From a virus (Duplodnaviria; Caudoviricetes): DNA of 56,842 nt. Each line of letters begins with the position of its first letter. Position 1 is the stretch's first letter. The stretch covers positions 1 to 56,842 of the IMG/VR virus record IMGVR_UViG_3300033182_000318. One strand, 5' to 3'. Both the position numbers and the translations under genes were made by a program. Below, in pieces: positions 27,050 through 55,794 of the stretch. The notes beneath the pieces were generated by a model. It did not search any database and was not told the DNA's origin. It saw only the letters and a program-made list of their open reading frames with translations.

Positions 27050-28335
27050 CAGTCATATTCCAAATCATCTTGGTCTGAGATAATCAAATCTTGTGCATCA
27101 TCTCCAGATATTTCTTCAAACGAACCAGAACCTGGTGTAAATTTACAAAACCAGTTTTTGTTATCTTGTCCATGTCTGAATTTAGCTAATTTGAATTTAA
27201 CAACGTGGGGAGATTTCTGTACCAGAGTGACTACACAGTCCGCATCCATACCTATGGCATCAGATTGGGATAAATGAATTACTGAAGGGGGTTCGTTACC
27301 TCCACCTTCTCTATTCATTTGTGCAGCAGATATAATCGGGATATCATATCTCTGAGCTATTGCTTTGATATCAGCACTTAACGAAGCAACAGCTCGCCAA
27401 TCATCTCCCCCTGACTTCAACAAAGTTAAATAGTCTATATAAACAACAGTTGGCTTATGTTCTTGTATTCTACTAGCAACAACTGCTGGAGAAACTGCTC
27501 CTCTACTACCGTCTACTACTGTAAAACTTCCTTTAATTTTTTTAGGAAGTTCTTGTAAGAATTTTTTGTATTCTCTGATATCAAAGTTTTCACCTTTCAT
27601 TAAATCTAAAGATTTGAAAGTTTCTTTTCCATATTCTGAAGAAAGAAAACTTTGTACCCTAAACCCAATTTGTTTTGAAGGTTGTTCTAAAGATACAAAT
27701 AAAACTTTTTCTCCTGCTTGTAATGCTGAACAAGCCATACGAATTAAAGTCCAAGTTTTTCCTTGTCCTAATCTAGCTCCTATTACCCAGAAATCTCCTC
27801 CTGATGCTCCACCAGTTAAATTATCTAAAGTTGGGAAGCCAGTTGGTATTCCTGCTAAACCTCTTTTATCTTTTGCAGCTATTCTTCTTTCAATATCTGC
27901 TAGTAAATAATCTCCATCTGATACAACATCTAAAGTACTAGAACCAGTATTAACTTTTTTCTGAAGTAACAAAATATCTTGATACAAAGAATCTAATAAC
28001 TTAGAACCTTGTTCTTTTTCTTTTATATCTTCAAAAGTATTTTTCATTAAAGAACTTAACTTAGTTCTAACATAGTTATCTTTAACTTCTGAACAAAAAT
28101 GTTCTAAGTCATCTACCTTGTACAAAGTAACTTCAGGGAAGTTAGTTTTAAAAGCATTAGTACTAGGTAAAGTTCTATGCTGTATAAAGTACTTTTCTAT
28201 CCAAGAATATTCTTCAGGATATGATATAAAGTATTCTCTACTTATTCCTTGTTCAGCTATTACTGCGTAGTCTTTTCTGCGTAGCAAAGCAGAAACAAGA
28301 AGTATTTCAGGATGTGCTGACATCTTCTGCTCCAA
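27049..28335 (-). CDS. dnaB: DnaB-like replicative helicase
   Basis: IPTGFPTLD; Walker A GARLGQGKT; SLEQ; IDYL; AQMNR; DAD; KFRHG. Confidence 0.9.
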   Translation of the reverse strand: MEQKMSAHPEILLVSALLRRKDYAVIAEQGISREYFISYPEEYSWIEKYFIQHRTLPSTNAFKTNFPEVTLYKVDDLEHFCSEVKDNYVRTKLSSLMKNTFEDIKEKEQGSKLLDSLYQDILLLQKKVNTGSSTLDVVSDGDYLLADIERRIAAKDKRGLAGIPTGFPTLDNLTGGASGGDFWVIGARLGQGKTWTLIRMACSALQAGEKVLFVSLEQPSKQIGFRVQSFLSSEYGKETFKSLDLMKGENFDIREYKKFLQELPKKIKGSFTVVDGSRGAVSPAVVASRIQEHKPTVVYIDYLTLLKSGGDDWRAVASLSADIKAIAQRYDIPIISAAQMNREGGGNEPPSVIHLSQSDAIGMDADCVVTLVQKSPHVVKFKLAKFRHGQDNKNWFCKFTPGSGSFEEISGDDAQDLIISDQDDLEYD

Positions 28336-28462
28336 TCGTCTTATCTATTCAGTTGTTACACAAGCTCTTGTGATAAGAAAGTAATTTACACCATATTGAT
28401 TTTTATGTGTAGTTTTTTTAAATATTTTTTTTTACTAGACTGTTTTGTGAAGGAGAAGATAA

Positions 28463-28651
28463 ATGGAAAAATACAAAGACCTTTTAGAAAGAGTTGGATT
28501 TACATTTGCAGAAGCATTCATTGCTTCCATAACTGTAGCTCCACTCATTGAATTAGATGCTTCAACTTTACAGTTGGCAATCATTGCAGGTGCTTCAGCA
28601 GCTCTTGTTGTTGTAAAAGAATTTGTAAAAAATAATATGCCTAGTAAGTAA
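28463..28651 (+). CDS. Holin (r1t-like actinophage type)
   Basis: DLLERVGFTFAEAF...AGASAALVVVK; two TM segments; AAGGAG RBS. Confidence 0.7.
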   Translation: MEKYKDLLERVGFTFAEAFIASITVAPLIELDASTLQLAIIAGASAALVVVKEFVKNNMPSK

Positions 28652-28654
28652 TAC

Positions 28655-28663
28655 TGGTATAAT
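28655..28663 (+). promoter_or_regulatory. Extended -10 promoter for the TLD RNA
   Basis: TGGTATAAT, 7 nt upstream of G1 at 28671. Confidence 0.7.
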
Positions 28664-28670
28664 TATTTTA

Positions 28671-28750
28671 GGGCTGGTACTGGAAAGACTTGCTAAGTGT
28701 TGCGGGACAGTTAGTGAGTAACGAGGGTTCGATTCCCTCCCAGTCCACAA
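28671..28750 (+). ncRNA. tmRNA-like RNA reduced to the tRNA-like domain (TLD only)
   Basis: Acceptor GGGCTGG/CCAGTCC with G3.U70 and discriminator A; stemless D-loop TACTGGAAAG; helix ACTTGCTAA/TTAGTGAGT; T-arm GAGGG-TTCGATT-CCCTC; no anticodon arm or tag ORF. Confidence 0.75.
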
Positions 28751-28751
28751 C

Positions 28752-28940
28752 ATGGACGATTTAGAGAAAGAAATTCAAAGACAAGCTAAAGAGCTAGTAG
28801 CTAGTTTAGAACACCTTTTGTCATTAATAGGTGAATATTCAAATCCTAGAATGTATCGTTGTTCTGTTTGTAAAAGAAAGTTATCCAATCACAAAGAAAA
28901 TATCTTTTGTAAAGACAGAGAGCATTTTACAAAAGGTTGA
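28752..28940 (+). CDS. Small putative Zn-binding protein
   Basis: CSVC...H....C; starts right after the RNA 3' end. Confidence 0.55.
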   Translation: MDDLEKEIQRQAKELVASLEHLLSLIGEYSNPRMYRCSVCKRKLSNHKENIFCKDREHFTKG

Positions 28941-29383
28941 AAATTTTCTCCCAAATTTTTTCTGGGGAAATTATGCCACTAAGGTAAATCGTCTTCTGTT
29001 AGACCCCAATTTAAGCCTTCTGGGATAGTTCTAAGGGATTGTTTTACTTTCTTTGGTGTTTTTTTATATTGGTCTGCTTCATGGCGAATCAGCACCGAAG
29101 TCAAGATGGCGTTTGGCGAAGCGGAAACAAAAAAAAATTTACGATTCTTACTCAACCACAGCCTCGCTTTGCTCGGCACAACAATACTCACTACCATACT
29201 TACAATTACAAATAGTGATATACGTACCGTCTTCATTTTTTGTTGTCATACACATAGAAATCAATCGTATCATATAAAAAAAAGAAGTCCATTTAGTGTG
29301 GGTGGTGAATCGGTTGCCCGACTCGGGTGGTTTCACATCCAAATAGACTTCTTTTGAATATATATATTAAATAAATCAATTTA

Positions 29384-29412
29384 AGAATAGTTCATATCGA
29401 TTTTTTTGTCAA
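29384..29412 (-). promoter_or_regulatory. Sigma70-type promoter
   Basis: TTGACA-17 nt-TATTCT on minus strand. Confidence 0.65.
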
Positions 29413-29522
29413 GGGAATTTGGGGGATTTTTTCGTCTTTAGCTTGTTGCATTGTAATGGACGATTGAACCTTCTTCTCAGAAGTTTTATATCAGTGACTG
29501 AGAAATCCCCCTCAACTTCCCA
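29413..29522 (-). ncRNA. Candidate ~110-nt structured RNA
   Basis: Ends pair (GGGAAGTTGAGGGGGATTT with AAATCCCCCAAATTCCC); TTGTCA-16-TACAAT upstream; no ORF. Confidence 0.35.
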
Positions 29523-29557
29523 CCTAATATTGTATACTATCTATGTTTTATGACAAA

Positions 29558-29701
29558 TTATTCTTCTTCTGTTTTAGCTATTGCTAGTTTTTTACCAAAA
29601 CGTTTATTGTACTGACGACAACCTACATTTCCGCAAACTCTATAGTTATCTCTAATTTTAAATTGGCTTTTACAACTCTTGCAGTTTTCTATAAATTTCA
29701 T
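29558..29701 (-). CDS. Small Zn-finger protein (47 aa)
   Basis: Hand-translated MKFIENCKSCK...VCGNVGC; AAGGAG upstream. Confidence 0.55.
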   Translation of the reverse strand: MKFIENCKSCKSQFKIRDNYRVCGNVGCRQYNKRFGKKLAIAKTEEE

Positions 29702-29885
29702 GCTCTCAGTTTATCTCCTTCTAAAAATTTTCTGTATATAAAAAATGGGTGACCAACGGATAAGTGGAAAAAGGCAAATTTTTGGGGGGGTGGGGTGCAA
29801 AGTTTTTCATGTTAAGTACTCATCACCAATCTTGTGTATAAATCGCTGCTGCATGGCTACTGAGTTGTTAAACGAGAGCTAAATG

Positions 29886-30137
29886 TCAATCCACTAGCTC
29901 TAGCAACCAGCTCCCATTGATTTTTATGCTCTCAAAATCTGTTTTAATCATGTGCTGCTGTCTGGATAAGTATGCTTTAGTTCTCTTATCTGTATTATGG
30001 CTACTGGTTACATTGGTTGGGCTATTTATTGAGAACGTTGCATTGTTATTTACAAAGTTCCTAGAAACTAAATCCTTTAAATCTACTTGTTCTCCACTCA
30101 CTAACCCTAGCATGAAGGCTTTTTCTATATCAATCAT
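29886..30137 (-). CDS. Hypothetical protein (leaderless)
   Basis: 83 aa; TATAAT 6 nt before ATG. Confidence 0.5.
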   Translation of the reverse strand: MIDIEKAFMLGLVSGEQVDLKDLVSRNFVNNNATFSINSPTNVTSSHNTDKRTKAYLSRQQHMIKTDFESIKINGSWLLELVD

Positions 30138-30149
30138 GAGAACATTATA

Positions 30150-30584
30150 CTAAGAAACTGCATCACCATCAATTTCCTGTCTTATAGCTTGTAAGTACTC
30201 CTCTTTGCTCCCATCAACAATCATAACTCCCTGTGTGATTTGTTGTTTTATTTCGGTCTGTTTCGGGGCTTCGAGTCCATATATCTTACTTATTCTATCC
30301 ATAACCGATAAAGCTCTGTCAATAGCTCCTAATTCTCCTTGTTGAACTCTTTCCCATAAGATTAATAAGATTTGATTTAGTCGCTCATATTCTACTTGTC
30401 GGAGTTCATCTGTAGGCTCGGCGATTATGGTTTTCATACTACGTTGAACACTCTTATAGGCTCCACTACTATCAGCATATCCTAATTGCTTTGCAATGAC
30501 CTCATAACTAGCTCCAGCTTTGCGTAATTCTAATGCTTGTCTGTCTTTTTCTCTTACTTCGATTGATTTAGTATTTACTTTCAT
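30150..30584 (-). CDS. HTH protein, probable terminase small subunit
   Basis: ALELRKAGASYEVIAKQLGY HTH; RISKIYGLEAPKQ, a pattern typical of TerS-like proteins. Confidence 0.65.
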   Translation of the reverse strand: MKVNTKSIEVREKDRQALELRKAGASYEVIAKQLGYADSSGAYKSVQRSMKTIIAEPTDELRQVEYERLNQILLILWERVQQGELGAIDRALSVMDRISKIYGLEAPKQTEIKQQITQGVMIVDGSKEEYLQAIRQEIDGDAVS

Positions 30585-30865
30585 GTACTCTGTTTATCTT
30601 ACTCTCAAACTGTCATCTATGCAAAGCCAAACCCCATGAATTTTGAATATCGCATAGAGGTCTTGAATTATGTCTTGTTTCGCCATAACTTGTAGTACCT
30701 AAATACTATTTTTAATCTTAAATAGCTACTATATGAGGACTGGAAATAACTATTTATGTTGTGTTTATTCTTTTTATTTACCTATTATATTAAATGATTT
30801 AATGACACCGAAGCCGAATTTTTTGAAAATTTCTTGCATTTGAGGTCAAAACCCTACCTTTGAGC

Positions 30866-30883
30866 TTGTGAAAAATTTCACAA
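30866..30883. promoter_or_regulatory. Palindromic operator matching the Rex box
   Basis: TTGTGAA-AAAT-TTCACAA. Confidence 0.55.
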
Positions 30884-30941
30884 AGTACAACTATTAGGCA
30901 TGTACTCAACTAATTTTTGCTCAAAAATGGCTATTTTTTTC

Positions 30942-30978
30942 ATGAATATTTATACATGAAAAATGTATAAATATACAT
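30942..30978. repeat. AT-rich inverted repeat
   Basis: ATGAATATTTATACAT-GAAAA-ATGTATAAATATACAT (15/16). Confidence 0.7.
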
Positions 30979-31092
30979 AAATTTTTAGTCCTCTTGTCTA
31001 AAATCCCATTAAATAAGGCTTTAAAATAGGCTTATTTTATGGGCTTTTTTCCAGCTTATTTATTGAAAAAATCTTAAAAATAGGCTACCTAT

Positions 31093-31121
31093 TTGCGAGG
31101 ACTATAGTATACTTATTATAA
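31093..31121 (+). promoter_or_regulatory. Putative promoter for the + strand island
   Basis: TTGCGA plus overlapping TATACT/TATTAT -10 candidates; spacing imperfect. Confidence 0.35.
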
Positions 31122-31660
31122 GGTATTTTATATCTTAAACCATCTTGGATAAAGAGGACAATAGGTGGTAGTTAGCCTACAGTCGTTGTCGGAGGACAAA
31201 ATGGAACTGGCTTTCAGCCTAAGTGCAAAATCTCTCCAAGAGGACACACAGAGCTTGTGTTTTCAAGCTGACTAGAGGACAATAATATACTCTTTTGACC
31301 TTACTGTCAGATGAGGACACAAGTTAAGCCTTCGGTGTATGAGGGCTTAGTCTGTTGTGTTGGTGGTTGATATTGGAGCAACCATACGACTTGCGGAGGA
31401 CGTCTCAGTATAGCGTGATACACCATACCCAAGACCAAAAGTCTTGAGGTCAGTAATCCACTTCAGTTCAAGAAGTAAAAACTACCAAGCTAGGTAGAGG
31501 ACTAACGTTTTATGTGTTAGAAATTGTCTGTGCGTTGGTGTGTAGGGAGAGGACACTTTCCCGTGTAGCCAAATAGTTTGTACAAAAGTACCATAATCAT
31601 AAAAAAGAGGTCTTTTCTTAATAACCAAGTTCCTACATAATAGAGGACGCCTAGTGGATA
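31120..31660 (+). ncRNA. Candidate large structured ncRNA / 5' leader
   Basis: No credible ORF; at least 10 hairpins or helices, e.g. 31252-31269, 31325-31349, 31430-31446, 31482-31497. Confidence 0.5.
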
Positions 31661-31666
31661 ATCGTA

Positions 31667-31941
31667 CAATACGCATTACAATGTCCTCATAGAAATGGGG
31701 GTAATATATGGCTAGAATTGGCTCATGCAGAAGATGTGGAGGACACAATTCCTCAACTTGCTCCTGCAATAGATTAATGATTAATACTAATTTTCCAATT
31801 CAAATGGGATTGGATAAAAAAAGAGGTCAAGCTCAAAAAATACTAATCAAAAATCCTGAAAAAATACAACAAATAATAGACATATTAACTAATTAATTAA
31901 AACTAACTAACTAACTAATGAGGACATTACAATGCGTATTG
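31667..31941. repeat. Inverted repeat pair A (31667-31690 / 31918-31941)
   Basis: CAATACGCATT-AC-AATGTCCTCAT vs ATGAGGACATT-AC-AATGCGTATTG; 22/24 bp. Confidence 0.9.
31708..31896 (+). CDS. Small Cys/His-rich protein
   Basis: CRRCGGHNSSTC; GGGGG RBS; enclosed by IR pair A. Confidence 0.6.
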   Translation: MARIGSCRRCGGHNSSTCSCNRLMINTNFPIQMGLDKKRGQAQKILIKNPEKIQQIIDILTN

Positions 31942-31983
31942 AACATACACTTCCTAATGTACTCCGAGAAAGAGAGTATATAT

Positions 31984-32265
31984 ATGGATAAACAACAATT
32001 AGCCGAATTAGTTGAGTATTTTGGTGAGGTCAAATTCACTAGAAAACAACTTAATCTAATTCGAGAAATCTTAAATATGAACACAATGTCATTAGTCAAT
32101 GAGTACAGCAACAAAAACTCTAAGAGTTTCAAAGTTGCATTAGATAAATTGGCTAGTGTTAATTATGATATAGCAAACGTTATGACAGAGGTCAGCCCAT
32201 CATTTAACCGAGATAAATGGTTTGATGAGGGCAACAAAACCTCAAATGCTCATATGATTTGGTAA
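31984..32265 (+). CDS. Hypothetical protein
   Basis: Start set to MDKQQL (purine-rich RBS); C-terminal SPSFNRDKWF. Confidence 0.6.
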   Translation: MDKQQLAELVEYFGEVKFTRKQLNLIREILNMNTMSLVNEYSNKNSKSFKVALDKLASVNYDIANVMTEVSPSFNRDKWFDEGNKTSNAHMIW

Positions 32266-32280
32266 TATTAAGGAGTACAT

Positions 32281-32400
32281 ATGAGTAAATTTCAACCAAA
32301 GTTCGTTTGTTATTGGTGTAAAACACAATTAGCAGAGGGCGAACAACTTACAGAAATAAAAGGTAACTTTTACTGTAAAAATTGCGATAATGTTAGGTGA
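32281..32400 (+). CDS. Zn-finger miniprotein (39 aa)
   Basis: Hand-translated MSKFQPKFVCYWC...GNFYCKNC; AAGGAG RBS. Confidence 0.65.
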   Translation: MSKFQPKFVCYWCKTQLAEGEQLTEIKGNFYCKNCDNVR

Positions 32401-32548
32401 GGTCGATACACGTATAAAATGTATGTGTAATCAATTCATGGCTAAAGTTTCCGTAATGGCTAACGTAAAGAGTACAACACTTGTACAATTCTTTTGTTTC
32501 CATTGTGGTGCGAGTACTGTAGCTAAAGAACAAGCAAAAAGAGTATAA
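32390..32548 (+). CDS. Zn-ribbon miniprotein (52 aa)
   Basis: Hand-translated MLGEVDTRIKCMC...FFCFHCG. Confidence 0.5.
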   Translation: MLGEVDTRIKCMCNQFMAKVSVMANVKSTTLVQFFCFHCGASTVAKEQAKRV

Positions 32549-32640
32549 AACAAGATTTCGGAGTACATTATGAAGTGTATGGTATGAATTATAACAATCA
32601 GTAATCTACGATAGGTCTGTGTCCTCGTGGAAGGATAAAA

Positions 32641-33546
32641 ATGAATAAAGATAGAGTTATCTTATCAGAGGACGTAAGTTCTCTAATCCCTAAAGGCTCT
32701 TTAGACAATTATGTTGAGAGAGTATTAGCAGGAGGTCAAACAGACCTACAAATACTAGCATACGCACACAAAGTAATGCACAATGTCCTCATTACTGGGG
32801 ATACAGGTGTTGGTAAAACTCATAGTGTTTCAGCTCATGCTGAGAGTACAAGTTTACCATTTGTTTCCATAGCTTGTAATGGTGCTACTAACCCAGACCA
32901 AATGTTTGGGCAATTTAAACCATCAGAGGACGGAAATGGCTTTGAGTGGGTAGACGGAATTGTTACAACTTTAGTAAGAAATGGTGGTGTCCTCTTACTA
33001 GATGAGGTTAATTTTATGAAACCTGACATTTCGGCTGCCCTCCACCCTTTGCTAGATAGTCGCAGAACACTAACTCTAGTTGAAAATGGTGGCGAGGTCA
33101 TCAAAGCTCATAAGGAATTTCAAGTAGTTGCTTGTATAAATCCTAATTATGAGGGCACTAGACCATTAAACGAAGCATTTAAAAATCGCTTTGGTATTCA
33201 TTTAGAATACACCTACGAGGGCAACAATGAGGATATTCTCGTTGAGAATAGACCTACTTTGCTTGAACTCGCAGACAAGCTAAGAGTTGCTCGTGAAAAT
33301 GGTACGATTGCTACACCTGTGAGTACAAACTCACTTATGGAATTTGGCGAATTTGTTGAGGACTTAGGTCTGGAATTTGCTATATCCAATTTCGTTAATA
33401 AATTCGATATTGATGAAAGAGCAGCAATCAAAGAGTACTTTGATGTATTAATACCACAAATCGCTAACGAATTTGGCGAGGACGTTCCTGACATGTTTGT
33501 CAATGATGTACCTCAATCAAATGACTTAGATGATACAGATAACTAA
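32641..33546 (+). CDS. MoxR/CbbQ-NirQ-type AAA+ ATPase
   Basis: GDTGVGKT; LLLDEVN; NPNYEGTRPLNEAFKNRF. Confidence 0.9.
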   Translation: MNKDRVILSEDVSSLIPKGSLDNYVERVLAGGQTDLQILAYAHKVMHNVLITGDTGVGKTHSVSAHAESTSLPFVSIACNGATNPDQMFGQFKPSEDGNGFEWVDGIVTTLVRNGGVLLLDEVNFMKPDISAALHPLLDSRRTLTLVENGGEVIKAHKEFQVVACINPNYEGTRPLNEAFKNRFGIHLEYTYEGNNEDILVENRPTLLELADKLRVARENGTIATPVSTNSLMEFGEFVEDLGLEFAISNFVNKFDIDERAAIKEYFDVLIPQIANEFGEDVPDMFVNDVPQSNDLDDTDN

Positions 33547-33561
33547 GAGAGGACTAACTTA

Positions 33562-35529
33562 ATGGATTATGAAAAAATGTCCATTGAGGAATATAACGAG
33601 TTGATAGAGAGAATGGTTGAGGACACCTCAGCCAACTCTCTTGATGAAATGTCTGCTGAGGACAAACAACGTAAATCTATGGTTGATATTATCGGTCAGA
33701 GTTTTGCGAGTACATTTACTAAGGTAAATCGTATTTTACTTGGCGACTATGAAACTCAAATATTTCTTGAGGACGGTAGACAAAAAATGGTTGATGCTCC
33801 TGCATGGACAGATGGCGAGGACGTATATTTGAATAAAAGATACGTTGCGAAATCTTTTGCTAATTTGGTAGAAAGTAACCAAATTAACTTTAAGAACATA
33901 GCAGAGGTCAAAGGTCTTAACTATCATGAGTTGGCTCATATTTTCTTTACACCAAGAATGAATAGCAAGATAGCGAAAGAGGTCAGAAAAATGGCTGATA
34001 ACTTTCCTGATTATTGGTATGCGTACAACGTGTTAGAGGACTTACGAGCAGAAATGTCTATGGTTATGATATTCCCAAAAATTGTTGATTATTTTTCAAT
34101 CGCAGTTTTTAACTATATCTTAAACCAAGAGGACGGTGATGTTGCAAATTCTTATATGTTGTTAAGTGGTAGATATTTTTTACCAATCGAAACACGTATG
34201 GAAATGAGGTCATTATTCGCACAAGAATATGGCGAAAAATTCACAAAGAATATGGAACAGATTGTCGAGGACTATGTTAAAAATATCACTTATACAAACA
34301 CCCGATATCAAGAGGGCTATGACTTAATCGAAAGATTTGTCATAGAAGTGTTAAAGCCTATGAGGACAAAATCTGGTAAGGCTTTACCGAAGTGCATAGG
34401 TGGTAGTCAACACGTACATGATAAAGATGCAGGAGCAGGTCGAGGTCATTGGGGAAAGAAAACCTTACAAGGTAGTCTTTCTAAAGGTACTACAAGAGTA
34501 CAAGACCAAAAACTTGTTAAACCTTATATAGAGGAATTAATTAATGAAGTTAAGGAAACTATAGAGGACATTAAATCTAACGAAGTTACTAACTTAGGAA
34601 CGAAAGCTGGACGAGGTCAAACTGATAACCAATCGGTTAAAGATGTAAAAGCTAGTTTAGAGGAAATTATCGAAATATACGAGTCCAATCCTACTTTCAA
34701 AAATGATGTTGAAATTACTAAAAAAGATATATCAGCAAAAATTGAGAAAGCAGTTGAGGACATTAACGTTGTCGGTATTACTGCTCAACCTATGCTTGTT
34801 GCACCTTCTCCGAGTACACTTAGTCTAAAATCTCAAATTGATAGATATTTTAGACAATTAAGAATTGACTTAGAGCAAGATTGGTTACGAGGTCGTAAGA
34901 CAGGTATCGTAGATATGAACAGATTAATGAGGACACAACATCTTCCTAGAGCAGATGTTTTCAAAAAATGGAAACCTAGCGAGGAGGACGCTGCTACTAG
35001 CGAGTGTGTTATATTGCTTGATATGTCAGGCAGTATGGACAGCGTTGCGAGGTCAGCTAGTGAAGTTGTGTGGATATTAAAACAATCGTTAGATAAAATC
35101 GGTGTGAGGACTACAGTATTAGGCTTTGCAAATCAATGTTATATTATTTACAAACCTAATCAAAAAGCAATTAGAGGACAAGTTCCTGTATATGCTACTG
35201 GTGGTGGAACTCAACCCGAGTACGCATTGAAACAAGCATTAAACGTTTTACGTACAAGTGATAGAAACAACAAATTTGTTGTTGCCCTCACTGATGGTGC
35301 TTGGACAGATAGCGAAAAAGAAATCGAATTAGTTAGAGAAATTACAAAAGAGGTCGATAGTTCAAATCTCTTATTCTATGGTGGATATTTCGACATGGAG
35401 AGGGCTAAGGACAAAGACAAATATGCTTTTGGAAATTTTACTAACATTAAGCAAATAAAGAAGTTAGAGGACACTTTAGATATTGTAAAATCTATCGTTT
35501 CCGATATAACTAATAAATATATATACTAA
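33562..35529 (+). CDS. VWA-domain partner with N-terminal HExxH-like region
   Basis: APAWTDG; HELAH; NVLED; MIDAS DMSGS, GGGT, LTDG. Confidence 0.85.
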   Translation: MDYEKMSIEEYNELIERMVEDTSANSLDEMSAEDKQRKSMVDIIGQSFASTFTKVNRILLGDYETQIFLEDGRQKMVDAPAWTDGEDVYLNKRYVAKSFANLVESNQINFKNIAEVKGLNYHELAHIFFTPRMNSKIAKEVRKMADNFPDYWYAYNVLEDLRAEMSMVMIFPKIVDYFSIAVFNYILNQEDGDVANSYMLLSGRYFLPIETRMEMRSLFAQEYGEKFTKNMEQIVEDYVKNITYTNTRYQEGYDLIERFVIEVLKPMRTKSGKALPKCIGGSQHVHDKDAGAGRGHWGKKTLQGSLSKGTTRVQDQKLVKPYIEELINEVKETIEDIKSNEVTNLGTKAGRGQTDNQSVKDVKASLEEIIEIYESNPTFKNDVEITKKDISAKIEKAVEDINVVGITAQPMLVAPSPSTLSLKSQIDRYFRQLRIDLEQDWLRGRKTGIVDMNRLMRTQHLPRADVFKKWKPSEEDAATSECVILLDMSGSMDSVARSASEVVWILKQSLDKIGVRTTVLGFANQCYIIYKPNQKAIRGQVPVYATGGGTQPEYALKQALNVLRTSDRNNKFVVALTDGAWTDSEKEIELVREITKEVDSSNLLFYGGYFDMERAKDKDKYAFGNFTNIKQIKKLEDTLDIVKSIVSDITNKYIY

Positions 35530-35601
35530 ATAAATCGAGGACATTAGACCTATCGTAGATTACTGATTATCAAAATTACTCTTTATTAATTAGGAGGACA
35601 T

Positions 35602-35769
35602 ATGACACTAATGCAAATGTTTTTCAAAGATTGTGATAATTGTGGGAGTACTACAATTTGGACAAAACTTGAACAACGCAGCGAAACTCAAACTCTAGTC
35701 GAGTGCGACCAATGTGAAAGGCAGGAAATCATGCCGACTACAGTACACGAGGACGTTTTAGATGGTTGA
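35602..35769 (+). CDS. Zn-ribbon miniprotein (55 aa)
   Basis: Hand-translated CDNCG...VECDQC; AGGAGG RBS. Confidence 0.65.
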   Translation: MTLMQMFFKDCDNCGSTTIWTKLEQRSETQTLVECDQCERQEIMPTTVHEDVLDG

Positions 35770-36148
35770 TGACATTAAAAATATTTTAATATCGTTAAAT
35801 CTAATTCGTACACAAAAGTTATCCTTAGATGACCAAGAGAGTACATTAAAAGCTAAGTTAATGCAATACCTTAAAAATAGTGATATGAAAAGTTTTTCAA
35901 TATCACATGAGGGCTTAAACATTAAATCTACTCTAGTCAAAAATGACAGAATAGAAATTGATGAATTAGGACTTATTGAGGACTTATCTACAGAACAATA
36001 TAATAAAATTATTAAAAAATCTATAGATAAAAAATTGCTTGAAATCGCCATTAAAAATGGGGATATATCAGAGGACATAGCTAAGAAATATCTCAAAGTC
36101 AAAACAGGTAAAGACTATATAAAACTTAATGTTGAGGAGGACAAGTAA
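35762..36148 (+). CDS. Hypothetical protein
   Basis: 128 aa; coiled-coil N-terminus. Confidence 0.6.
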   Translation: MVDDIKNILISLNLIRTQKLSLDDQESTLKAKLMQYLKNSDMKSFSISHEGLNIKSTLVKNDRIEIDELGLIEDLSTEQYNKIIKKSIDKKLLEIAIKNGDISEDIAKKYLKVKTGKDYIKLNVEEDK

Positions 36149-36447
36149 TGATTAATCCAATACAAAAATCCCCCTCAGCATTGAGGACTTGGGTTGATAA
36201 AAACACAAGAGAAAAAGTCTATTTACCGATTGACTTAGCGAGGTCTTTAGATGTGGATATCAAGACAGTTCGTAGATGGTTGAGAACAAAGAAAATTTTG
36301 CCTAGTTATCATTTAACGCAGGGAAAAAATTCAATACCAATATGGACTGCTGAGGACATTATCTATGTACAAAATTGGTATGTAAACAAATCAAAAGGAA
36401 AACAACCTAAATATAGAGAGGAGGTCAGTACAGATGATAACATTTAG
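36148..36447 (+). CDS. MerR/Xis-like HTH DNA-binding protein
   Basis: DLARSLDVDIKTVRRW...WTAEDI. Confidence 0.7.
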   Translation: MINPIQKSPSALRTWVDKNTREKVYLPIDLARSLDVDIKTVRRWLRTKKILPSYHLTQGKNSIPIWTAEDIIYVQNWYVNKSKGKQPKYREEVSTDDNI

Positions 36448-36637
36448 TAGTGGCTTACATTTAGCAATTATATTCGTAATGGCTTTAGCTATGCTTTATA
36501 TACTTTTCGAGGTCTATAACGTAGTTAGGCTTTATATTGCCGAATATAAATACAACAAAGAAAAACCAATAAACATTGACTTTAACAAGAGTACAGATGT
36601 TGATGAGTTTTTCAATAATACTTACAAAACATGGTAA
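36434..36637 (+). CDS. Small membrane protein
   Basis: N-terminal TM helix. Confidence 0.55.
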   Translation: MITFSSGLHLAIIFVMALAMLYILFEVYNVVRLYIAEYKYNKEKPINIDFNKSTDVDEFFNNTYKTW

Positions 36638-36852
36638 AAAAACCAAGTCTAAACGAGGGCGATACCATAGAACACGCTTTAACTGTTGAAACTGTTATAG
36701 CTGGTCAAAAAATATGGATAAAGACAGGAGCTACCACTACTGTGAGGACAGGCGAAAGTCCGAGTGGTGCTAGTAAACGTTTAGCCAACTTTGTAAGCAG
36801 GAGGACTTCACAACAAGTGCAAGAAATCCGAAACGCAGGTAAATCAGAGTAA
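36631..36852 (+). CDS. Hypothetical protein
   Basis: 73 aa; last gene before terminator. Confidence 0.55.
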   Translation: MVKKPSLNEGDTIEHALTVETVIAGQKIWIKTGATTTVRTGESPSGASKRLANFVSRRTSQQVQEIRNAGKSE

Positions 36853-36882
36853 TTTTGAGTACATAATTCATACGTACCTTTT

Positions 36883-36932
36883 GGGGATAGTAGTTAAATT
36901 TTATTATTTAGCTACTATCCCCATTTTTTTTT
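36883..36932 (+). terminator. Intrinsic terminator of the + strand island
   Basis: GGGGATAGTAGTTAAAT / ATTTAGCTACTATCCCC stem followed by a T-run. Confidence 0.85.
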
Positions 36933-37496
36933 GTGCTCTTTTTTTTGAGATAGAACCCCCCCAGCAGCCCACAAAAAAAAGAGTGCATTTTTCAGTTTTC
37001 ATGACACACCCAGCAGAGAAATATCAGAATATTGAGAACAATTTTTGTTAAATTCCCACGGAGGCTAGGCTTCCAAAGAGAACAGATTTGCTTCGCTGCC
37101 ATTAAATTATGTTCTCTTTTCTTCTAATTCTCGCCATCTGGCTTTTGCAAGAAACTGTGCTCGGGAAGGAAGGAGTGAATTTTTGAGATGCTCTCATTTT
37201 TTTTTCACCCAAGGGGGAATGTCAGGAAAAAATAAAGAGCTCACCAAACACCAACCCCACCTCCATCTTCAAAAAAAAAAAGTACTCAGAACCCATCTCA
37301 GCATCATTTTTGCTCTCTTTTTTTAGTGCGAACCGTTTGCAAGAAGAATTGTCCTCTTTTTTTTACGCAACATAATAAATGTCCTCGTTTTTTGAAAATA
37401 CACCTTTAAGGGCACTTTAAAAATGCACTCGGAACTTTCAAAACTTCCACAAATGAAAAATGATATTTTTGACTAACTATATAAGAGTGCGAAAGT

Positions 37497-38882
37497 TTAA
37501 AGACTCCAAGGACTTTTCTCACGAACAAAATCAATTAATGGTGCTAACGCTTCAAACTTAAATCCACGTTCTGCCCATGCTAAAGCCATAGCAACCATAC
37601 TGTCAGGTGTGTGACCATTTCCAAAGATATCATCAAAACCAGCATATTTATGGTCTTGATACATACTTTCTATCATTGGACTTTGAATTAATCCACGCTC
37701 ACACGCAGAAATATATTCAGAAAATAAATTCTTTTTATTACTTCCAGTAATTACATAAGGAATTGAATCAACTGTTATATAATCTTCTACTACATTACCA
37801 ATACCAGTAGCATCATGAACTAATTTACCAGGATATTTAGCTAATCTTTGTTCAGCTTTTGCTACCATATCTCCCCAAGGTTCACGGTGTGTTCTTTCAA
37901 AAGCAACTACACGCCAAGGCTCAACATCAGTTCTTAATGTAACTATAACTGTACAATCTCTTTGTTTCGCCCAGTCCACTCCAGTTATGTAAGTGCCCTC
38001 CCCCATATATTTTTCGAACTGGTATTCTACACCGACTTCTCCAGAAACCTTATCGTGTGTTTGTAATGAAAACATTTCATCAACTTTCTCTGCTTCTATA
38101 GCTCTACCTTCAAATGAAGGCTCTTGCATATCAAACTCTATATCCCACATAGCTTGTGAAACTTCACTTCTTTTTCTTTCTACTTCAGAAGGTTCTAACC
38201 AACCATGTGGTTTAACTGTTTCTCTCCAACACCATTCATATACTGGATAACCTTTTTCTTTTGCTCGTCTAAGCATTTCTGTCATAGTTTTATCTGGATA
38301 TTGGTGTGTAGAAGAAGCAACTGTTTGTGTTTGAATACCATTCTTAGCCATTGGCTGTCCCTGTGCTGCTTCTAAGATATCTAGCTCCATTTCATCTATC
38401 TCATCTAGTCTTAATCTTTGTGGGTGCTGACCACGAACAGACCTTTGTGAAGCTGTTAAAGCTCTAATCCAAGCTCCTGAAGTTAAATTAGTTGAATATT
38501 TGTTTGGTGCATCTACTAAAAGACCTGTAGGTGCGTTTTTATGTGCCCATGCTTCTAAAGATATTTCATAAACACGAAGTGATTGTGCTGCTGAACCTCC
38601 TAGTACTGTTACCTGAGCTCCTAAAGTTACTGCTTCCGTCAAGGCTAATAATCCTAAAGTATTAGTTTTTCCTCCCATACCACGACTAGCTTTCCAAATA
38701 GAAAAAGGATGCCTACCGAAGTAAGCATCAGCGAATGCCTCAAATGGAGATTGGTGGTGTGGACAAATAGATGTTCTTGGTATGGATATTCCCCATAATA
38801 AACGAACTACTTCCCATAATTCATCATCATCTTGGGGTGGTCTGCCTAGAATTAGCTGTTTTTTTGTTTCTGTTTGTTCCAT
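37497..38882 (-). CDS. terL: Terminase large subunit
   Basis: SRGMGGKT; VRG...LRLDEIDE; nuclease GVDWAK...D; PDSMVAMALA. Confidence 0.85.
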   Translation of the reverse strand: MEQTETKKQLILGRPPQDDDELWEVVRLLWGISIPRTSICPHHQSPFEAFADAYFGRHPFSIWKASRGMGGKTNTLGLLALTEAVTLGAQVTVLGGSAAQSLRVYEISLEAWAHKNAPTGLLVDAPNKYSTNLTSGAWIRALTASQRSVRGQHPQRLRLDEIDEMELDILEAAQGQPMAKNGIQTQTVASSTHQYPDKTMTEMLRRAKEKGYPVYEWCWRETVKPHGWLEPSEVERKRSEVSQAMWDIEFDMQEPSFEGRAIEAEKVDEMFSLQTHDKVSGEVGVEYQFEKYMGEGTYITGVDWAKQRDCTVIVTLRTDVEPWRVVAFERTHREPWGDMVAKAEQRLAKYPGKLVHDATGIGNVVEDYITVDSIPYVITGSNKKNLFSEYISACERGLIQSPMIESMYQDHKYAGFDDIFGNGHTPDSMVAMALAWAERGFKFEALAPLIDFVREKSPWSL

Positions 38883-38893
38883 AATTAGTTAAA

Positions 38894-38956
38894 ATTATAC
38901 CACAGGTGATTTCAATAGCGTAGTGGAGGTAAACAGGAAACACTATGAAATCACCT
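38894..38956. promoter_or_regulatory. terL extended -10 promoter with adjacent hairpin
   Basis: Minus-strand TGGTATAAT 11 nt before terL ATG; AGGTGATTTCA/TGAAATCACCT stem 38904-38956. Confidence 0.55.
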
Positions 38957-39002
38957 AAATGTGTTATTATTATTGTAGCAATATATAAAGAAAGGGCTAC
39001 TT

Positions 39003-39413
39003 GTGTCAGATATTGAACTAACTAGCACGGTTTATGTGCCAGATAACTTAGCTGAATATGATAAATATTTAGTAGAGTTTTATTGTGATATTCCTTATGA
39101 TTATGATAATCCTACCGAAGAACAAGTGTTCTTTTGTTTAGGTCATTGGGATAATGAAGAAGTTTTATATATTAAAAAAGTTGTACCAATAAAAAACATA
39201 GCGGAGGATAAACAAAATAAATTTGAAGTTAATCCTCTCGACTATGAAAAATATTCTAATTTATTAGTTGCTATAATTCACACACATCCTAATAATAATG
39301 TTTTTCCTTCAGATGAAGATATTAAACACTTACCTAAAGATGTTATTGGTGGTATCTATCAACCTACAACAAACCACGTTATATGGTGGAATGCTTATAA
39401 ATTAGATTTATAA
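39003..39413 (+). CDS. JAB/MPN (JAMM) metalloprotease-domain protein
   Basis: E...HTHP....PSDED JAMM motif. Confidence 0.8.
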   Translation: MSDIELTSTVYVPDNLAEYDKYLVEFYCDIPYDYDNPTEEQVFFCLGHWDNEEVLYIKKVVPIKNIAEDKQNKFEVNPLDYEKYSNLLVAIIHTHPNNNVFPSDEDIKHLPKDVIGGIYQPTTNHVIWWNAYKLDL

Positions 39414-39414
39414 A

Positions 39415-39735
39415 TTAGCCTCTTTTTGTTCTTCTAGCTGGTGTTGGTGTAGTTTTTAAAGGACCACGCTTTGAAGCAGCAGCTCTAACAGCAGCTACGT
39501 TACTTCTAGCAGTAATACTTTGTGCCCTTAAAATGTTTCTAGCTCTTGTTTTAGCTCTTGCACCTTTGTTAGGGTCATTAACTGTAGCCTGTGCATTTGT
39601 TAATTGCTTGAACTTTGTTGCTCTTGCAGAACCAGCTTTGAAAGGGTTTCTTTTACTACCTCTAGCTCTTTGTTGTGCAGAACGTGTTGCACCAGAACCA
39701 GACCCAGCACCTTTAATTGTAATTACATTATTCAT
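39415..39735 (-). CDS. Highly basic Arg/Lys/Ala-rich protein
   Basis: 106 aa with one acidic residue. Confidence 0.6.
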   Translation of the reverse strand: MNNVITIKGAGSGSGATRSAQQRARGSKRNPFKAGSARATKFKQLTNAQATVNDPNKGARAKTRARNILRAQSITARSNVAAVRAAASKRGPLKTTPTPARRTKRG

Positions 39736-39771
39736 AGTAAGAACAATAGTTAGTGAAAAAACAAACGCAAG

Positions 39772-41193: not shown

Positions 41194-41569
41194 TTTTCCT
41201 CCTACGTAATTCTAGCTCTCTTTTATAATTATGTTGTAATAATTTTCTTTCCTCTGGTGTATAACCACCAAATATTCCCATATCAGATTTAGTTATTATT
41301 GCAAAGTCTAAACATTCACGTTGTACTGGACAAGCATGACACACTTCTTTGGCATCTTCTTCTGTATAAAGATATTCTCCATCTACTTTTACTGTAGGAA
41401 AGAATTTGTTACTATCTTCACCAACACAATTGCCATTATTTTTCCAATCCCCTTCTAATAAAATTTGTATATCTGTATTACATTTCCAATCATCTGGTTT
41501 TTCTCGAATAAAAGAAGGTTGAAACTTTGGTATTAATTTACCATATTTAAGTTGTTCGTCTTCTTCCAT
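41171..41569 (-). CDS. whiB: WhiB-family Fe-S transcription factor
   Basis: C...FFP...CHACPVQRECL...GIFGGYTPEER. Confidence 0.9.
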   Translation of the reverse strand: MEEDEQLKYGKLIPKFQPSFIREKPDDWKCNTDIQILLEGDWKNNGNCVGEDSNKFFPTVKVDGEYLYTEEDAKEVCHACPVQRECLDFAIITKSDMGIFGGYTPEERKLLQHNYKRELELRRRKNGKQQSN

Positions 41570-52596: not shown

Positions 52597-52603
52597 AATT
52601 AAC

Positions 52604-53218: not shown

Positions 53219-53219
53219 A

Positions 53220-54705: not shown

Positions 54706-54762
54706 ATTATTCTCCTATCTTTCTAAATATTATCATGTTATTTTTTTCATTAAAAGTTTGCA

Positions 54763-55788: not shown

Positions 55789-55794
55789 AATATC

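What the first reader, a model, noticed from the sequence alone, without database searches (positions are those of the whole stretch)
30657..37390. A ~6.5 kb island tiled about every 60 bp with a GAGGAC-type hexamer, including through coding sequence
Seen: I counted ~98 copies of GAGGAC/GAGGTC/GAGTAC/GAGGGC between 30657 and 36862, e.g. 31097, 31154, 31192, 31240, 31275, 31313 and 35049, 35106, 35174, 35218. About 90% are on +. A rough composition-based expectation is under 10. Spacing is even. Reverse copies inside CDSs (32785, 32989, 33037, 35284) and rarer variants (GAGTCC 34681, GAGTGC 35701) fall where a gap would otherwise be. Copies sit in different reading frames and use GAG/GAC codons, whereas the rest of the genome prefers GAA/GAT. 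I rarely saw the motif outside ~29.8-37.5 kb. Inference: selection for a DNA site at fixed density. Options are (i) a protein coat or base modification protecting the first-injected DNA, (ii) counter-silencing of an Lsr2-type silencer, (iii) a loading/orienting track for TerS or a translocase. Candidate readers are the HTH proteins at 30150 and 36148 and the ParB fusion. I know of no described system matching this.
Basis: partly seen in the sequence, partly recalled or inferred. Interest (0 to 1): 0.92.

Follow-up and report, generated by a model that had tools for sequence, protein, structure and literature searches.

The report
Phage DNA domain tiled with hexamers
One 6-8 kb segment of this marine phage genome carries a six-letter DNA word about every 64 letters while the rest of the genome has none, and a sister phage uses the same layout with one letter of the word changed, which points to an undescribed way for a phage to mark one part of its own chromosome.

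Summary
All 106 copies of GAGGAC/GAGGTC/GAGTAC/GAGGGC in this 56,842-bp phage genome lie between 29816 and 37995. Synonymous-codon shuffles predict about 21 copies outside that span; one is seen. Shuffles predict 14 inside the island genes; 71 are seen.

Spacing is even: mean 64 bp, CV 0.31, against 0.99 for random placement. Reverse copies fill the gaps. Sites are conserved in place between relatives.

A sister lineage with 87% TerL identity has the same tile built from GCG[GT][AGT]C. That is a single-base switch at about 100 sites. No tile was found in 126 other loci.

Three metatranscriptomes cover 31133-36878 but hardly the flanks, so the island is the phage's one rightward, heavily transcribed unit. 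It lies between terL and terS and begins with an abundant ~540-nt RNA.

Best reading (about 0.35): a track of double-stranded DNA sites for a lineage-specific phage DNA-binding protein. The candidates are the RacA/Xis/BldC-like winged-helix protein at 36148-36447, or TerS. The protein would coat this domain to control its transcription or its handling at packaging. I found no description of such a system in the six of my seven paper searches that bore on it. The earlier scan notes for this genome covered the same stretch only.

The parts
30657..36862 (+). Main tile: 89 sense-oriented and 9 reverse copies of GAG[GAC/GTC/TAC/GGC], one per ~64 bp, running through non-coding DNA and 10 ORFs
29816..30590 (-). 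Left flank: 4 copies in terS-sense orientation (29816, 30195, 30498, 30585). The last abuts the terS start codon
37282..37430 (-). Cluster of terL-sense copies just downstream of the terL stop (37282, 37351, 37381, and GAGTGC at 37425). It is syntenic with 7 copies in L099 and 6 in L007, where the same conserved contexts carry GCG
36863..37281 (.). Gap free of the four core variants (one GAGTGC at 36981). It is rich in homopolymers and holds the island terminator. Site polarity converges here
36882..36923 (+). Terminator-like hairpin (18 pairs plus T run), 20 nt after the last + site. RNA contigs end at 36873-36878
31133..31675 (+). ORF-free, structured, abundant RNA at the head of the unit, carrying 12 motif copies. 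Adapter-flanked contig ends lie at 31133 and 31661
36148..36447 (+). p99: small MerR/excisionase-type winged-helix protein and candidate reader. K39 and R43 align with RacA's base-contacting Lys15 and Arg19. R42 is K only in the GCG lineage
30150..30584 (-). TerS (its homologue sits directly upstream of terL in distant relatives), the alternative candidate reader. Q47 and K51 of the putative recognition helix are conserved in relatives without a tile but are K and D in the GCG lineage
32641..33546 (+). MoxR/CobS-like AAA+ ATPase (AAA_5) with 15 sites. The L007 orthologue also has 15, mostly at other positions
33562..35529 (+). VWA/CobT-like protein with 31 sites (32 in L007)
37497..38882 (-). 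TerL-like gene bounding the domain on the right. It carries the single outlying copy at 37995

Best explanation
The tile is a cis-acting track of about 100 recognition sites (G-A-G-K-D-C, not C at +7). I propose that a phage-encoded, lineage-specific DNA-binding protein reads these sites on double-stranded DNA. Because the word occurs nowhere else in the genome, the protein would be confined to one 6-8 kb domain. That domain is the only rightward, very strongly transcribed unit (ncRNA, MoxR, VWA, small genes) together with the adjoining terS gene and the non-coding stretch after terL.

A site every ~64 bp, never more than ~140 bp apart, lets monomers or small oligomers occupy the whole domain without any fixed lattice. 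The most likely consequence is domain-wide control of this unit: polar roadblock or shut-off, or insulation of the head-on early unit when late transcription and packaging start next to it.

The best candidate reader is p99 (36148-36447), a RacA/Xis/BldC-type winged helix encoded at the 3' end of the unit. TerS is the alternative.

Shown: the site array, its exclusivity, its spacing, its conservation, its single-base switch between lineages, and the high RNA coverage of the unit. Inferred: that a protein binds the sites, which protein it is, and what binding does.
For: Recognition on duplex DNA:
- The word is purged from both strands outside the domain. Sense copies: 1 against 13.9 expected. 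Antisense copies: 0 against 6.8 expected.
- Reverse copies fill the gaps between forward copies (P < 5e-5).
- Sites continue with regular spacing and mixed orientation upstream of the RNA 5' end (30657-31097) and through terS in L099 and L007.
- Motif hexamers are not predicted to be more single-stranded in the RNA than G+C-matched hexamers.

A specific reader:
- Information is confined to 6-7 positions with keto (G/T) and 'not C' degeneracy.
- The sister lineage L007/L100 has GCGKDC at the same density (gap 63.1 +/- 18.3 against 64.0 +/- 19.9).
- Each lineage holds the other's word only at background level.
- In conserved non-coding contexts after terL, and in front of the p55 and p128 start codons, the same site is present with only A changed to C.

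Selection for density rather than position: the MoxR orthologues carry 15 and 15 sites, and the VWA orthologues 31 and 32. Only 7 of 55 sites share a column.

Link to transcription:
- 97 of 106 copies are in the sense orientation of the local genes.
- The + tile ends 20 nt before a strong terminator.
- Contigs from three metatranscriptomes cover 31133-36878 at depth 6-65. Coverage over terL is 0 to about 1.4. A DNA run is flat at about 42.

Candidate readers:
- p99 matches the RacA DNA-binding domain by sequence (E 0.021) and by fold (5i44, TMt 0.69; also MerR DNA-binding domains and BldC).
- RacA's base-contacting Lys15 and Arg19 (PMC4914108, passages read) align with invariant K39 and R43 of p99.
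- R42K is the only recognition-helix change private to the GCG lineage.
- p99 relatives in IMG/VR were found only in tile-bearing contigs (5 of 5 loci).
- In TerS, Q47K and K51D occur only in the GCG lineage, at residues that are conserved in relatives with 42-44% identity and no tile.
Against: Both candidate proteins differ between lineages at about the background rate, so the residue arguments are weak with only three lineages.

The 10:1 orientation bias is larger than composition explains. Shuffles that use the outside genes' codon usage give about 2:1. A symmetric 'any orientation binds' model does not predict such a bias.

RNA-run coverage shows that the unit is strongly represented in RNA, not that it is silenced.

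No repressor, integrase or other sign of lysogeny was found among the 47 ORFs scanned.

The genome also lacks GATC, GGCC and CGCG completely. Exclusion of a word from this genome can therefore also result from host restriction.

The RNA data are assembled contigs from RNA libraries. They cannot give strand, level or true ends (caveats printed).
Confidence: 0.35

Rival explanations
1. Extended packaging-recognition domain. The hexamers are TerS (or TerS plus accessory) binding sites. The dense cluster after terL is the pac core. The tile is a long polar landing or orienting track that funnels terminase to the site-free gap and sets the packaging direction. Exclusion elsewhere prevents ectopic packaging starts.
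For: - The domain lies exactly between terL and terS, and in L099 and L007 it runs through terS.
- A dense (29-49 bp), positionally conserved cluster follows the terL stop in all three lineages.
- Site polarity converges on a homopolymer-rich gap of 163-425 bp.
- TerS recognition-helix residues Q47 and K51, conserved in distant relatives, are changed only in the GCG lineage.
- Gln to Lys would fit A:T to C:G (inference).
- Hexamer arrays in the phage P1 pac site are known (recalled, not checked).
Against: - Known pac and cos sites need a handful of sites, not about 100 spread over 6.5 kb of coding DNA.
- Distant relatives share the TerS helix but have no tile.
- Reverse copies inside the tile would misdirect a polar translocase, yet they appear to be selected.
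- The genome ends could not be mapped, because only assembled contigs were available.
Confidence: 0.2
2. Enzyme target track. A sequence-specific nickase or base-modifying enzyme acts at each word, mainly on the non-template strand. The purpose might be swivels, loading points or protection in the highly transcribed or first-entering segment. The word is banned elsewhere because nicks or modification there are harmful.
For: - A short, asymmetric, degenerate 6-7 bp word resembles enzyme recognition sites.
- A strand bias aligned with transcription is what a strand-specific nick would select.
- One-base specificity switches are typical of restriction and modification-type enzymes (recalled).
- A ParB_N-DUF4417 fusion of unknown function lies beside terL (preprint 10.1101/2025.10.10.680097, passages read).
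Against: - No methyltransferase, HNH or restriction-type nuclease domain was found in the 47 ORFs scanned.
- The DUF4417 model was unusable (pLDDT 40).
- Reverse copies in MoxR and VWA would nick the template strand.
- The DNA run shows even depth across the island.
Confidence: 0.12
3. RNA-level signal. The word is read in the sense transcripts, by a phage endoribonuclease that clears early mRNA (T4 RegB-like) or by an RNA-binding protein that coats or represses them.
For: - 97 of 106 copies are in sense orientation.
- The + tile coincides with the RNA-covered unit and stops at its terminator.
- A copy sits 0-7 nt upstream of 6 of the 10 island start codons and of the terS start codon.
- At least two of these start-codon sites are kept in place as GCG in L100.
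- G/U ambiguity is common in RNA readers (recalled).
Against: - Antisense copies are also purged outside the domain (0 against 6.8 expected).
- Reverse copies fill gaps.
- Regularly spaced sites lie upstream of the RNA 5' end, and in mixed orientation in the intergenic and terS DNA.
- Motif hexamers are not predicted to be more accessible than G+C-matched controls; in L100 they are less accessible.
Confidence: 0.12
4. Host-defence related. The word is the recognition site of a strain-variable host restriction or defence enzyme. The phage has purged it everywhere except in a decoy or sponge segment that ties up or misdirects the enzyme.
For: - The genome is completely free of GATC, GGCC and CGCG, so site purging is this phage's habit.
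- The lineages differ in which palindromes they avoid: the window has no CGCG (L100 has 17), and L100 has no CCGG (the window has 11). This suggests different host restriction repertoires.
- Candidatus Actinomarinales, one possible host group (the host is unknown), carries variable type I-III R-M islands (PMC7771536, passages read).
Against: - A decoy is pointless if the rest of the genome has no sites.
- Nine reverse copies would allow cleavage by enzymes that need inverted sites.
- Even spacing and site-by-site purifying selection are not predicted.
- GCGKDC has no invariant adenine for a type III or BREX-type methylase.
Confidence: 0.08

Closest known systems
Stoperators of cluster A mycobacteriophages (L5 gp71 type)
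   Same: Many copies of an asymmetric repressor site are oriented with the direction of transcription and block elongation. Site and repressor co-evolve into distinct immunity specificities in close relatives (PMC6550527 and PMC9283540: search listing and abstracts only).
   Different: Stoperators are 13-14 bp, number about 25-35 per genome, are spread over the whole genome and lie mostly between genes (recalled). Here the word is 6-7 bp, about 100 copies sit in 6.5 kb, they are embedded in coding sequence in all three frames, and the word is confined to one domain. No repressor or integrase was found.
Domain-marking site sets: RacA/ram, MatP/matS, Noc/NBS, ParB/parS
   Same: Sites are restricted to one chromosomal domain and absent elsewhere, so that a DNA-binding protein marks, compacts or anchors that domain. 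The p99 fold and base-contact residues match RacA.
   Different: Those systems use 14-23 bp sites, mostly palindromic, and tens of sites over hundreds of kilobases, in cellular chromosomes. None is tiled at ~64 bp through genes.
Lambda Xis and Streptomyces BldC head-to-tail binding
   Same: Small MerR/excisionase-type winged-helix monomers bind short asymmetric direct repeats co-operatively. Fold-search hits were 6ama and 6amk. Xis matched by sequence at E 0.36-0.39.
   Different: They bind 2-6 adjacent repeats at one locus, phased along the helix. Here there is no phasing and the array is kilobases long. The binding modes of Xis and BldC are recalled, not checked.
pac and cos recognition arrays (P1 pac hexamers, lambda cosB R sites, SPP1 pacL/pacR)
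   Same: Short repeated words next to the terminase genes are read by the small terminase subunit and are specific to the lineage.
   Different: Those arrays have a handful of sites within 100-300 bp (recalled). They do not extend over a multi-kilobase transcription unit.
Polar 'architecture' words: Chi, KOPS, SRS; the one-orientation EcoP15I sites of T7
   Same: These are strand-biased short words whose orientation has meaning for a translocating enzyme. Polarity flips at defined points.
   Different: They are genome-wide rather than confined to one domain, are not evenly spaced, and are not excluded from the rest of the genome (recalled).
T4 RegB targeting of GGAG in early mRNAs
   Same: A short purine-rich word, enriched at early-gene ribosome-binding sites, marks early transcripts for inactivation.
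   Different: RegB works at the RNA level with a 4-nt word and no tiling. Here both DNA strands are constrained.

Membership tests
Stoperator / immunity-repressor system (cluster A actinophages) | Asymmetric site oriented with the direction of transcription | tested here: met
   97 of 106 copies are in the sense orientation of the local genes.
Stoperator / immunity-repressor system (cluster A actinophages) | 13-14 bp sites, tens per genome, distributed over the whole genome and mostly intergenic | tested here: not met
   Information is confined to 6-7 bp. All 106 copies lie in 8.2 kb. 71 copies lie inside coding sequence.
Stoperator / immunity-repressor system (cluster A actinophages) | Cognate immunity repressor, and a temperate lifestyle (integrase or partition functions) | tested here: inconclusive
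   No repressor or integrase domain was found in the 47 ORFs scanned. About 30 small ORFs were not scanned. p99 could act as a repressor.
Stoperator / immunity-repressor system (cluster A actinophages) | Site consensus differs between closely related phages together with the repressor | tested here: inconclusive
   The site switch GAG to GCG is shown. Co-variation of a reader rests on three lineages only.
pac site read by the small terminase | Repeated words adjacent to or inside terS/terL | tested here: met
   There is a cluster after the terL stop, and copies lie in and at the start of terS.
pac site read by the small terminase | Compact site (about 100-300 bp) containing the packaging cut | tested here: not met
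   The array spans 6.3-8.2 kb. The position of the cut is not testable with assembled contigs.
RacA/ram-type domain anchoring | MerR-like winged-helix DNA-binding domain with Lys and Arg base contacts in helix 2 | tested here: met
   Sequence match E 0.021. Foldseek 5i44, TMt 0.69. K39 and R43 align with Lys15 and Arg19. The model's pLDDT is only 63.6.
RacA/ram-type domain anchoring | 14-bp GC-rich palindromic site, and a coiled-coil C-domain that binds DivIVA | tested here: not met
   The site is an asymmetric 6-7-mer. p99 has 99 residues with a short conserved acidic tail and no coiled coil.
Restriction-modification recognition site | Cognate methyltransferase or nuclease encoded by the phage or host | tested here: inconclusive
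   None was found in the phage ORFs scanned. The host is unknown.
Known RNA family for the leader RNA | Rfam covariance-model match | tested here: not met
   No match reached the gathering score in 28000-39000.

The most novel reading that the evidence does not exclude
This is a previously undescribed kind of phage genome architecture: a self-addressed DNA domain. A lineage-private hexamer code, written at about 1 site per 64 bp through genes and non-coding DNA and erased from the rest of the chromosome, lets a small phage protein treat one segment of the phage's own DNA differently from the rest. The segment might be coated, anchored (RacA-like, perhaps with the adjacent small membrane protein 36434-36637) or switched off as a block. 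Reader and code evolve together by single-base specificity jumps, as immunity systems do.
Probability: 0.35. Interest if true: 0.9.

Novelty: categorically new. Interest (0 to 1): 0.86.

Why it matters
If a protein reads this track, it would be the densest natural site array written through coding sequence that I know of. It would also be a clean natural experiment in how about 100 sites and their reader change specificity together (GAG to GCG), with density conserved (64.0 against 63.1 bp) while positions drift.

It would show that a phage can give one part of its chromosome a private address. That bears on temporal control of early genes, on conflicts between transcription and packaging or replication, and on how the first-expressed DNA is handled.

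In practice, the pair of words and the two candidate readers make the idea directly testable with EMSA or DAP-seq and with recoded islands. A 6-bp orthogonal reader and site pair could also be a useful tool.

The phage belongs to uncultured low-G+C marine or salt-marsh actinophages (it has WhiB and 34.6% G+C). Bench work would therefore need heterologous systems.

Tried and rejected
Chance or composition: rejected.

Protein-level selection for Glu-Asp: rejected. All three frames and non-coding DNA carry the word, and the sister lineage uses GCG.

Shine-Dalgarno function: rejected as the main role. GCGGAC occupies the same places before start codons in L100.

Lsr2 counter-silencing: rejected. 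It needs no specific word.

Helical phasing or lattice: none. The best periodogram peaks lie within the null for the window and L100 and are marginal in L099.

Tile linked to MoxR/VWA as such: rejected. L009 and L012 have MoxR/VWA at 43-44% MoxR identity (VWA 30%, L012 only) without a tile.

Other tiles: the scan of 126 loci of at least 5 kb found tiles only in the window clade and in L007/L100.

No nucleotide match (8-kb island query, megablast) and no TerL protein match (tblastn) in the 'phages' collection.

The search of earlier findings by words returned nothing.

I made seven paper searches. Three were aimed at a comparable tiled domain: stoperator/phage/immunity; phage/evenly spaced/motif/strand bias/early region; GAGGAC/bacteriophage. 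Three others bore on it. None of these six gave a description of a comparable tiled domain. Supplementary files were not opened.

The DUF4417 structure model had pLDDT 40 and was not used.

Complex prediction with TerS and p99 returned no verdict.

A conserved-context pattern search returned 29 loci. Twenty-seven belong to an unrelated AT-rich phage family with a GTG version of the 19-mer, no tile and no protein homology to 50 window proteins. I treat this as a chance match.

The RNA-run data are contigs. Parts without cover, and contig ends, are not evidence of absence or of true RNA ends.

The PADLOC hits (mad1, HamA and others; E 2e-4 to 1e-2) are too weak to use.

Full report
WHAT THE WINDOW IS

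The window is a whole 56,842-bp contig with 34.6% G+C. It is a tailed-phage genome. It encodes:
- a portal protein, a prohead protease and a major head protein;
- a DnaB helicase, a DnaG-type primase and a family A DNA polymerase;
- a UvsX-like recombinase, an SSB and an exonuclease;
- RuvC, a pyrimidine-dimer glycosylase, WhiB, a ParB_N-DUF4417 fusion and a TerL-like protein.

WhiB points to an actinobacterial host. Runs that hold the sequence are seawater and salt-marsh metagenomes. Nearly all genes are on the minus strand. The island is the one plus-strand block.

THE OBSERVATION

All 106 copies of GAGGAC, GAGGTC, GAGTAC and GAGGGC, counted on both strands, lie between 29816 and 37995.

An unbiased k-mer contrast finds the same words.

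Synonymous-codon shuffles gave these results:
- 48 genes outside the island: mean 20.7 copies expected (range 12-33, 200 shuffles), 1 observed.
- 10 island genes: mean 14.1 expected (maximum 25, 500 shuffles), 71 observed.
- Maximal-order Markov expectation outside: 12.3, with 0 observed.

Both strands are purged outside the domain. Sense copies are 1 against 13.9 expected, and antisense copies 0 against 6.8 expected.

Spacing within 30585-36857 has n = 99, mean 64.0, sd 19.9, CV 0.31 and range 28-143. None of 20,000 random placements reached that CV.

The nine reverse copies inside the + tile sit in the largest gaps between forward copies. Merged CV is 0.313 against 0.511 for random placement, P < 5e-5. 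Mean distance to the nearest forward copy is 59 bp against 21 bp.

Sense copies in coding sequence use frames 0, 1 and 2 in the ratio 38:8:20.

The information lies in seven positions: G, A, G, G/T, not-C, C, not-C. Nothing is conserved in the flanks.

There is no helical phasing or long-range period, so this is a density rule and not a lattice.

COMPARATIVE EVIDENCE

IMG/VR and metagenome contigs with 92-100% TerL identity carry the same island and word.

The contig behind L007/L100 has 87% TerL identity. It has the same layout, but its word is GCG[GT][AGT]C: 114 copies in the 14.7-kb contig, none in its flanks. It has 89 forward copies and 1 reverse copy in the main tile (CV 0.30), and a gap of 63.1 +/- 18.3 bp.

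Each lineage has the other's word only at background level.

Site density per gene is conserved: MoxR 15 and 15, VWA 31 and 32. Only 7 of 55 sites are in the same alignment column, and 25 of 55 lie within 6 nt of a site in the other lineage.

Between the two GAG lineages (71% nucleotide identity over the island), 60 of 99 sites are retained in place, against 18% of control hexamers. At 94% identity, 95 of 99 are retained, against 71% of controls.

In the conserved non-coding stretch after terL, and in front of the p55 and p128 start codons, homologous sites differ only by A against C at position 2.

A mask-based scan of 126 loci of at least 5 kb found no comparable tile outside this clade. The loci included TerL relatives at 37-56% identity and MoxR relatives at about 30%. 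L009 and L012 carry MoxR (43-44% identity) and, in L012, part of VWA (30%), and have no tile.

ANATOMY

From the left:
- Four copies in terS-sense orientation, the last abutting the terS start codon.
- A divergent intergenic region with regularly spaced copies in mixed orientation (30657-31097).
- The + tile from 31097 to 36857.
- A strong terminator-like hairpin at 36882-36923.
- A homopolymer-rich gap.
- A cluster of terL-sense copies (37282, 37351, 37381, and GAGTGC at 37425) just after the terL stop. The equivalent cluster has 7 copies in L099 and 6 in L007, spaced 29-49 bp.

In L099 and L007 the tile also runs through terS in mixed orientation.

In distant relatives the terS homologue sits directly upstream of terL. 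In this clade the island therefore separates the two terminase genes.

Island proteins are far more diverged between the window and L007 than the flanks are. VWA is 38% identical, p128 38%, MoxR 59% and p99 67%. TerL is 87%, TerS 79% and DnaB 93%.

EXPRESSION

Contigs from three metatranscriptomic runs cover 31133-36878 at summed depths of 6-65. They are nearly absent over terL (0 to about 1.4) and over 25.6-26.8 kb. A DNA run is flat at about 42 from 30950 to 43000.

The deepest part is 31133 to about 31670. Adapter sequence abuts 31133 and 31661. This fits an abundant ~540-nt RNA with no ORF. It is structured (z = -3.5) and has no Rfam family.

These are assembled contigs. They show presence, not strand, level or true ends.

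DNA OR RNA?

The following favour recognition on DNA:
- purging of both strands outside the domain;
- gap-filling reverse copies;
- regularly spaced sites upstream of the RNA start and in mixed orientation in the intergenic and terS DNA;
- motif hexamers that are not predicted to be more accessible in the RNA than G+C-matched hexamers.

The following keep an RNA-level or transcription-coupled reading alive:
- the 10:1 sense bias, where composition alone gives about 2:1;
- the coincidence of the tile with the transcription unit;
- a copy 0-7 nt before six of ten island start codons and before the terS start codon.

CANDIDATE READERS

p99 (36148-36447) matches the RacA DNA-binding domain (E 0.021) and lambda Xis (E 0.36-0.39) by sequence.

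Its AlphaFold model has pLDDT 63.6 and the topology of a winged helix. The model's best Foldseek hits are the RacA-DNA complex (5i44, E 2.6e-3, TMt 0.69), MerR-family DNA-binding domains, BldC and a small-terminase DNA-binding domain.

In RacA, Lys15 and Arg19 of helix 2 make the base contacts (PMC4914108, passages read). They align with K39 and R43 of p99, which are invariant. The neighbouring R42 is K only in the GCG lineage, and also in the two distant homologues P0003 and P0008.

p99 relatives in IMG/VR occur only in tile-bearing contigs (5 of 5 loci). In 1.84 billion representative proteins only two further full-length homologues were found.

TerS has a putative recognition helix reading SSGAYKSVQRSMK. 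It is the same in all GAG-clade loci. Q47 and K51 are conserved even in the relatives L010 and L011, which have 42-44% identity and no tile. In the GCG lineage these residues are K47 and D51.

With only three lineages, neither protein can be preferred on statistical grounds. A TerS-p99 complex prediction gave no verdict.

No methyltransferase or restriction-type nuclease was seen in the 47 ORFs scanned. The DUF4417 domain could not be modelled.

INTERPRETATION

The facts that need explaining are:
- positive selection for a site about every 64 bp, and never more than about 140 bp apart, over one domain;
- strict exclusion of the word elsewhere, on both strands;
- a preferred but not obligatory orientation that follows local transcription and converges on a gap beside terL;
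- a clean one-base change of the word between sister lineages;
- the domain being the phage's most strongly represented RNA.

A phage-encoded, sequence-specific duplex-DNA reader that occupies the whole domain accounts for most of these. I give that reading about 0.35, with domain-wide control of the head-on early unit as the likeliest function. An extended TerS or packaging track gets 0.2. Enzyme targets (nick or modification) get 0.12. RNA-level reading gets 0.12. A host-defence-related decoy gets 0.08.

The host-defence rival gains some weight from the complete absence of GATC, GGCC and CGCG in this genome and from differences in palindrome avoidance between lineages.

COMPARISON WITH KNOWN SYSTEMS

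The nearest functional analogue is the stoperator system of cluster A mycobacteriophages. Its sites are oriented and repressor-specific, and they co-evolve with the repressor into new immunities. The defining features of site length, number, genome-wide spread and intergenic position were tested here and are not met.

RacA/ram, MatP/matS and ParB/parS share the logic of sites confined to one domain. They do not share the scale, the site type or the density.

P1 and lambda-type pac and cos arrays share the position next to the terminase genes but are compact.

I found no description of a domain tiled through coding sequence by a private hexamer. Six of my seven paper searches bore on this, three of them aimed at it directly. 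The search of earlier scan notes by words also returned nothing. I therefore rate it categorically new as a genome feature, while stressing that the mechanism is inferred.

Noticed in passing
window 32587-32618 / 35546-35577; 31664-31690 / 31918-31944; 31944-31967 / 32558-32581: Long-range inverted repeats of 24-32 nt (89-96% complementary) bracket the gene blocks MoxR+VWA, p62, and p115+p52. Two of the three pairs (I2 and I3) include a motif copy in each arm; for I1 the copies at 32621 and 35537 lie just outside the reported arms. RNA-run contigs begin or end at these arms (32586-32592, 35545, 35564-35580). A DNA-run variant lacks 31667-31946 and 31981-32279. This suggests RNA processing stems or cassette boundaries.
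   Followed up: partly
window, whole genome: GATC (expected about 153-182), GGCC (about 22-51) and CGCG (about 10-51) are completely absent. The GCG-lineage contig L100 has 17 CGCG but no CCGG. L006 has no GCGC or CCGG. The lineages seem to face different restriction repertoires.
   Followed up: partly
window 28671-28750 (+): Partial tmRNA-like element (Rfam RF00023, 36.2 bits, below the gathering score of 47, E 1.1e-11).
   Followed up: partly
window 39415-39735 (-): A 106-residue protein with 25 Lys/Arg and 1 Asp/Glu, rich in Ala, Thr and Ser, and so histone-tail-like. RNA-run contigs cover 39239-39717 at depth 20-75, far above neighbouring terL. No homologue was detected in L100.
   Followed up: no
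window 31708-31896, 32390-32548, 35602-35769 (+): Three small island proteins (62, 52 and 55 residues) each have four cysteines in CxxC-type pairs, which suggests zinc ribbons. p52 is 77% identical in the other GAG lineage but 32% in the GCG lineage.
   Followed up: no
window 36434-36637 (+): A 67-residue ORF overlaps the p99 stop and has an N-terminal hydrophobic, transmembrane-like segment. It could be a membrane partner for a RacA-like DNA binder. This is speculation.
   Followed up: no
window 35762-36148 (+): p128 resembles DUF7173 phage proteins (ESM Atlas feature score 0.96). It is 72% identical in the other GAG lineage but only 36-37% in the GCG lineage.
   Followed up: partly
window 30946-30975: An AT-rich hairpin or palindrome lies in the divergent intergenic region. 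Two contigs of the DNA run X1 both end at 30950. This could be strain variation, an origin or a physical end.
   Followed up: no
L165-L193 except L168 and L186: An unrelated, abundant AT-rich (30-33% G+C) phage family shares a conserved ~60-nt element containing TTCCGTGTGCATTTTGAAA. It has no tile and no protein homology to this phage.
   Followed up: partly
window 51685-56838 (-): Four consecutive paralogous genes carry the glycine-rich domain PF21722 (303-362 residues), in the region of raised G+C (0.40-0.50).
   Followed up: no
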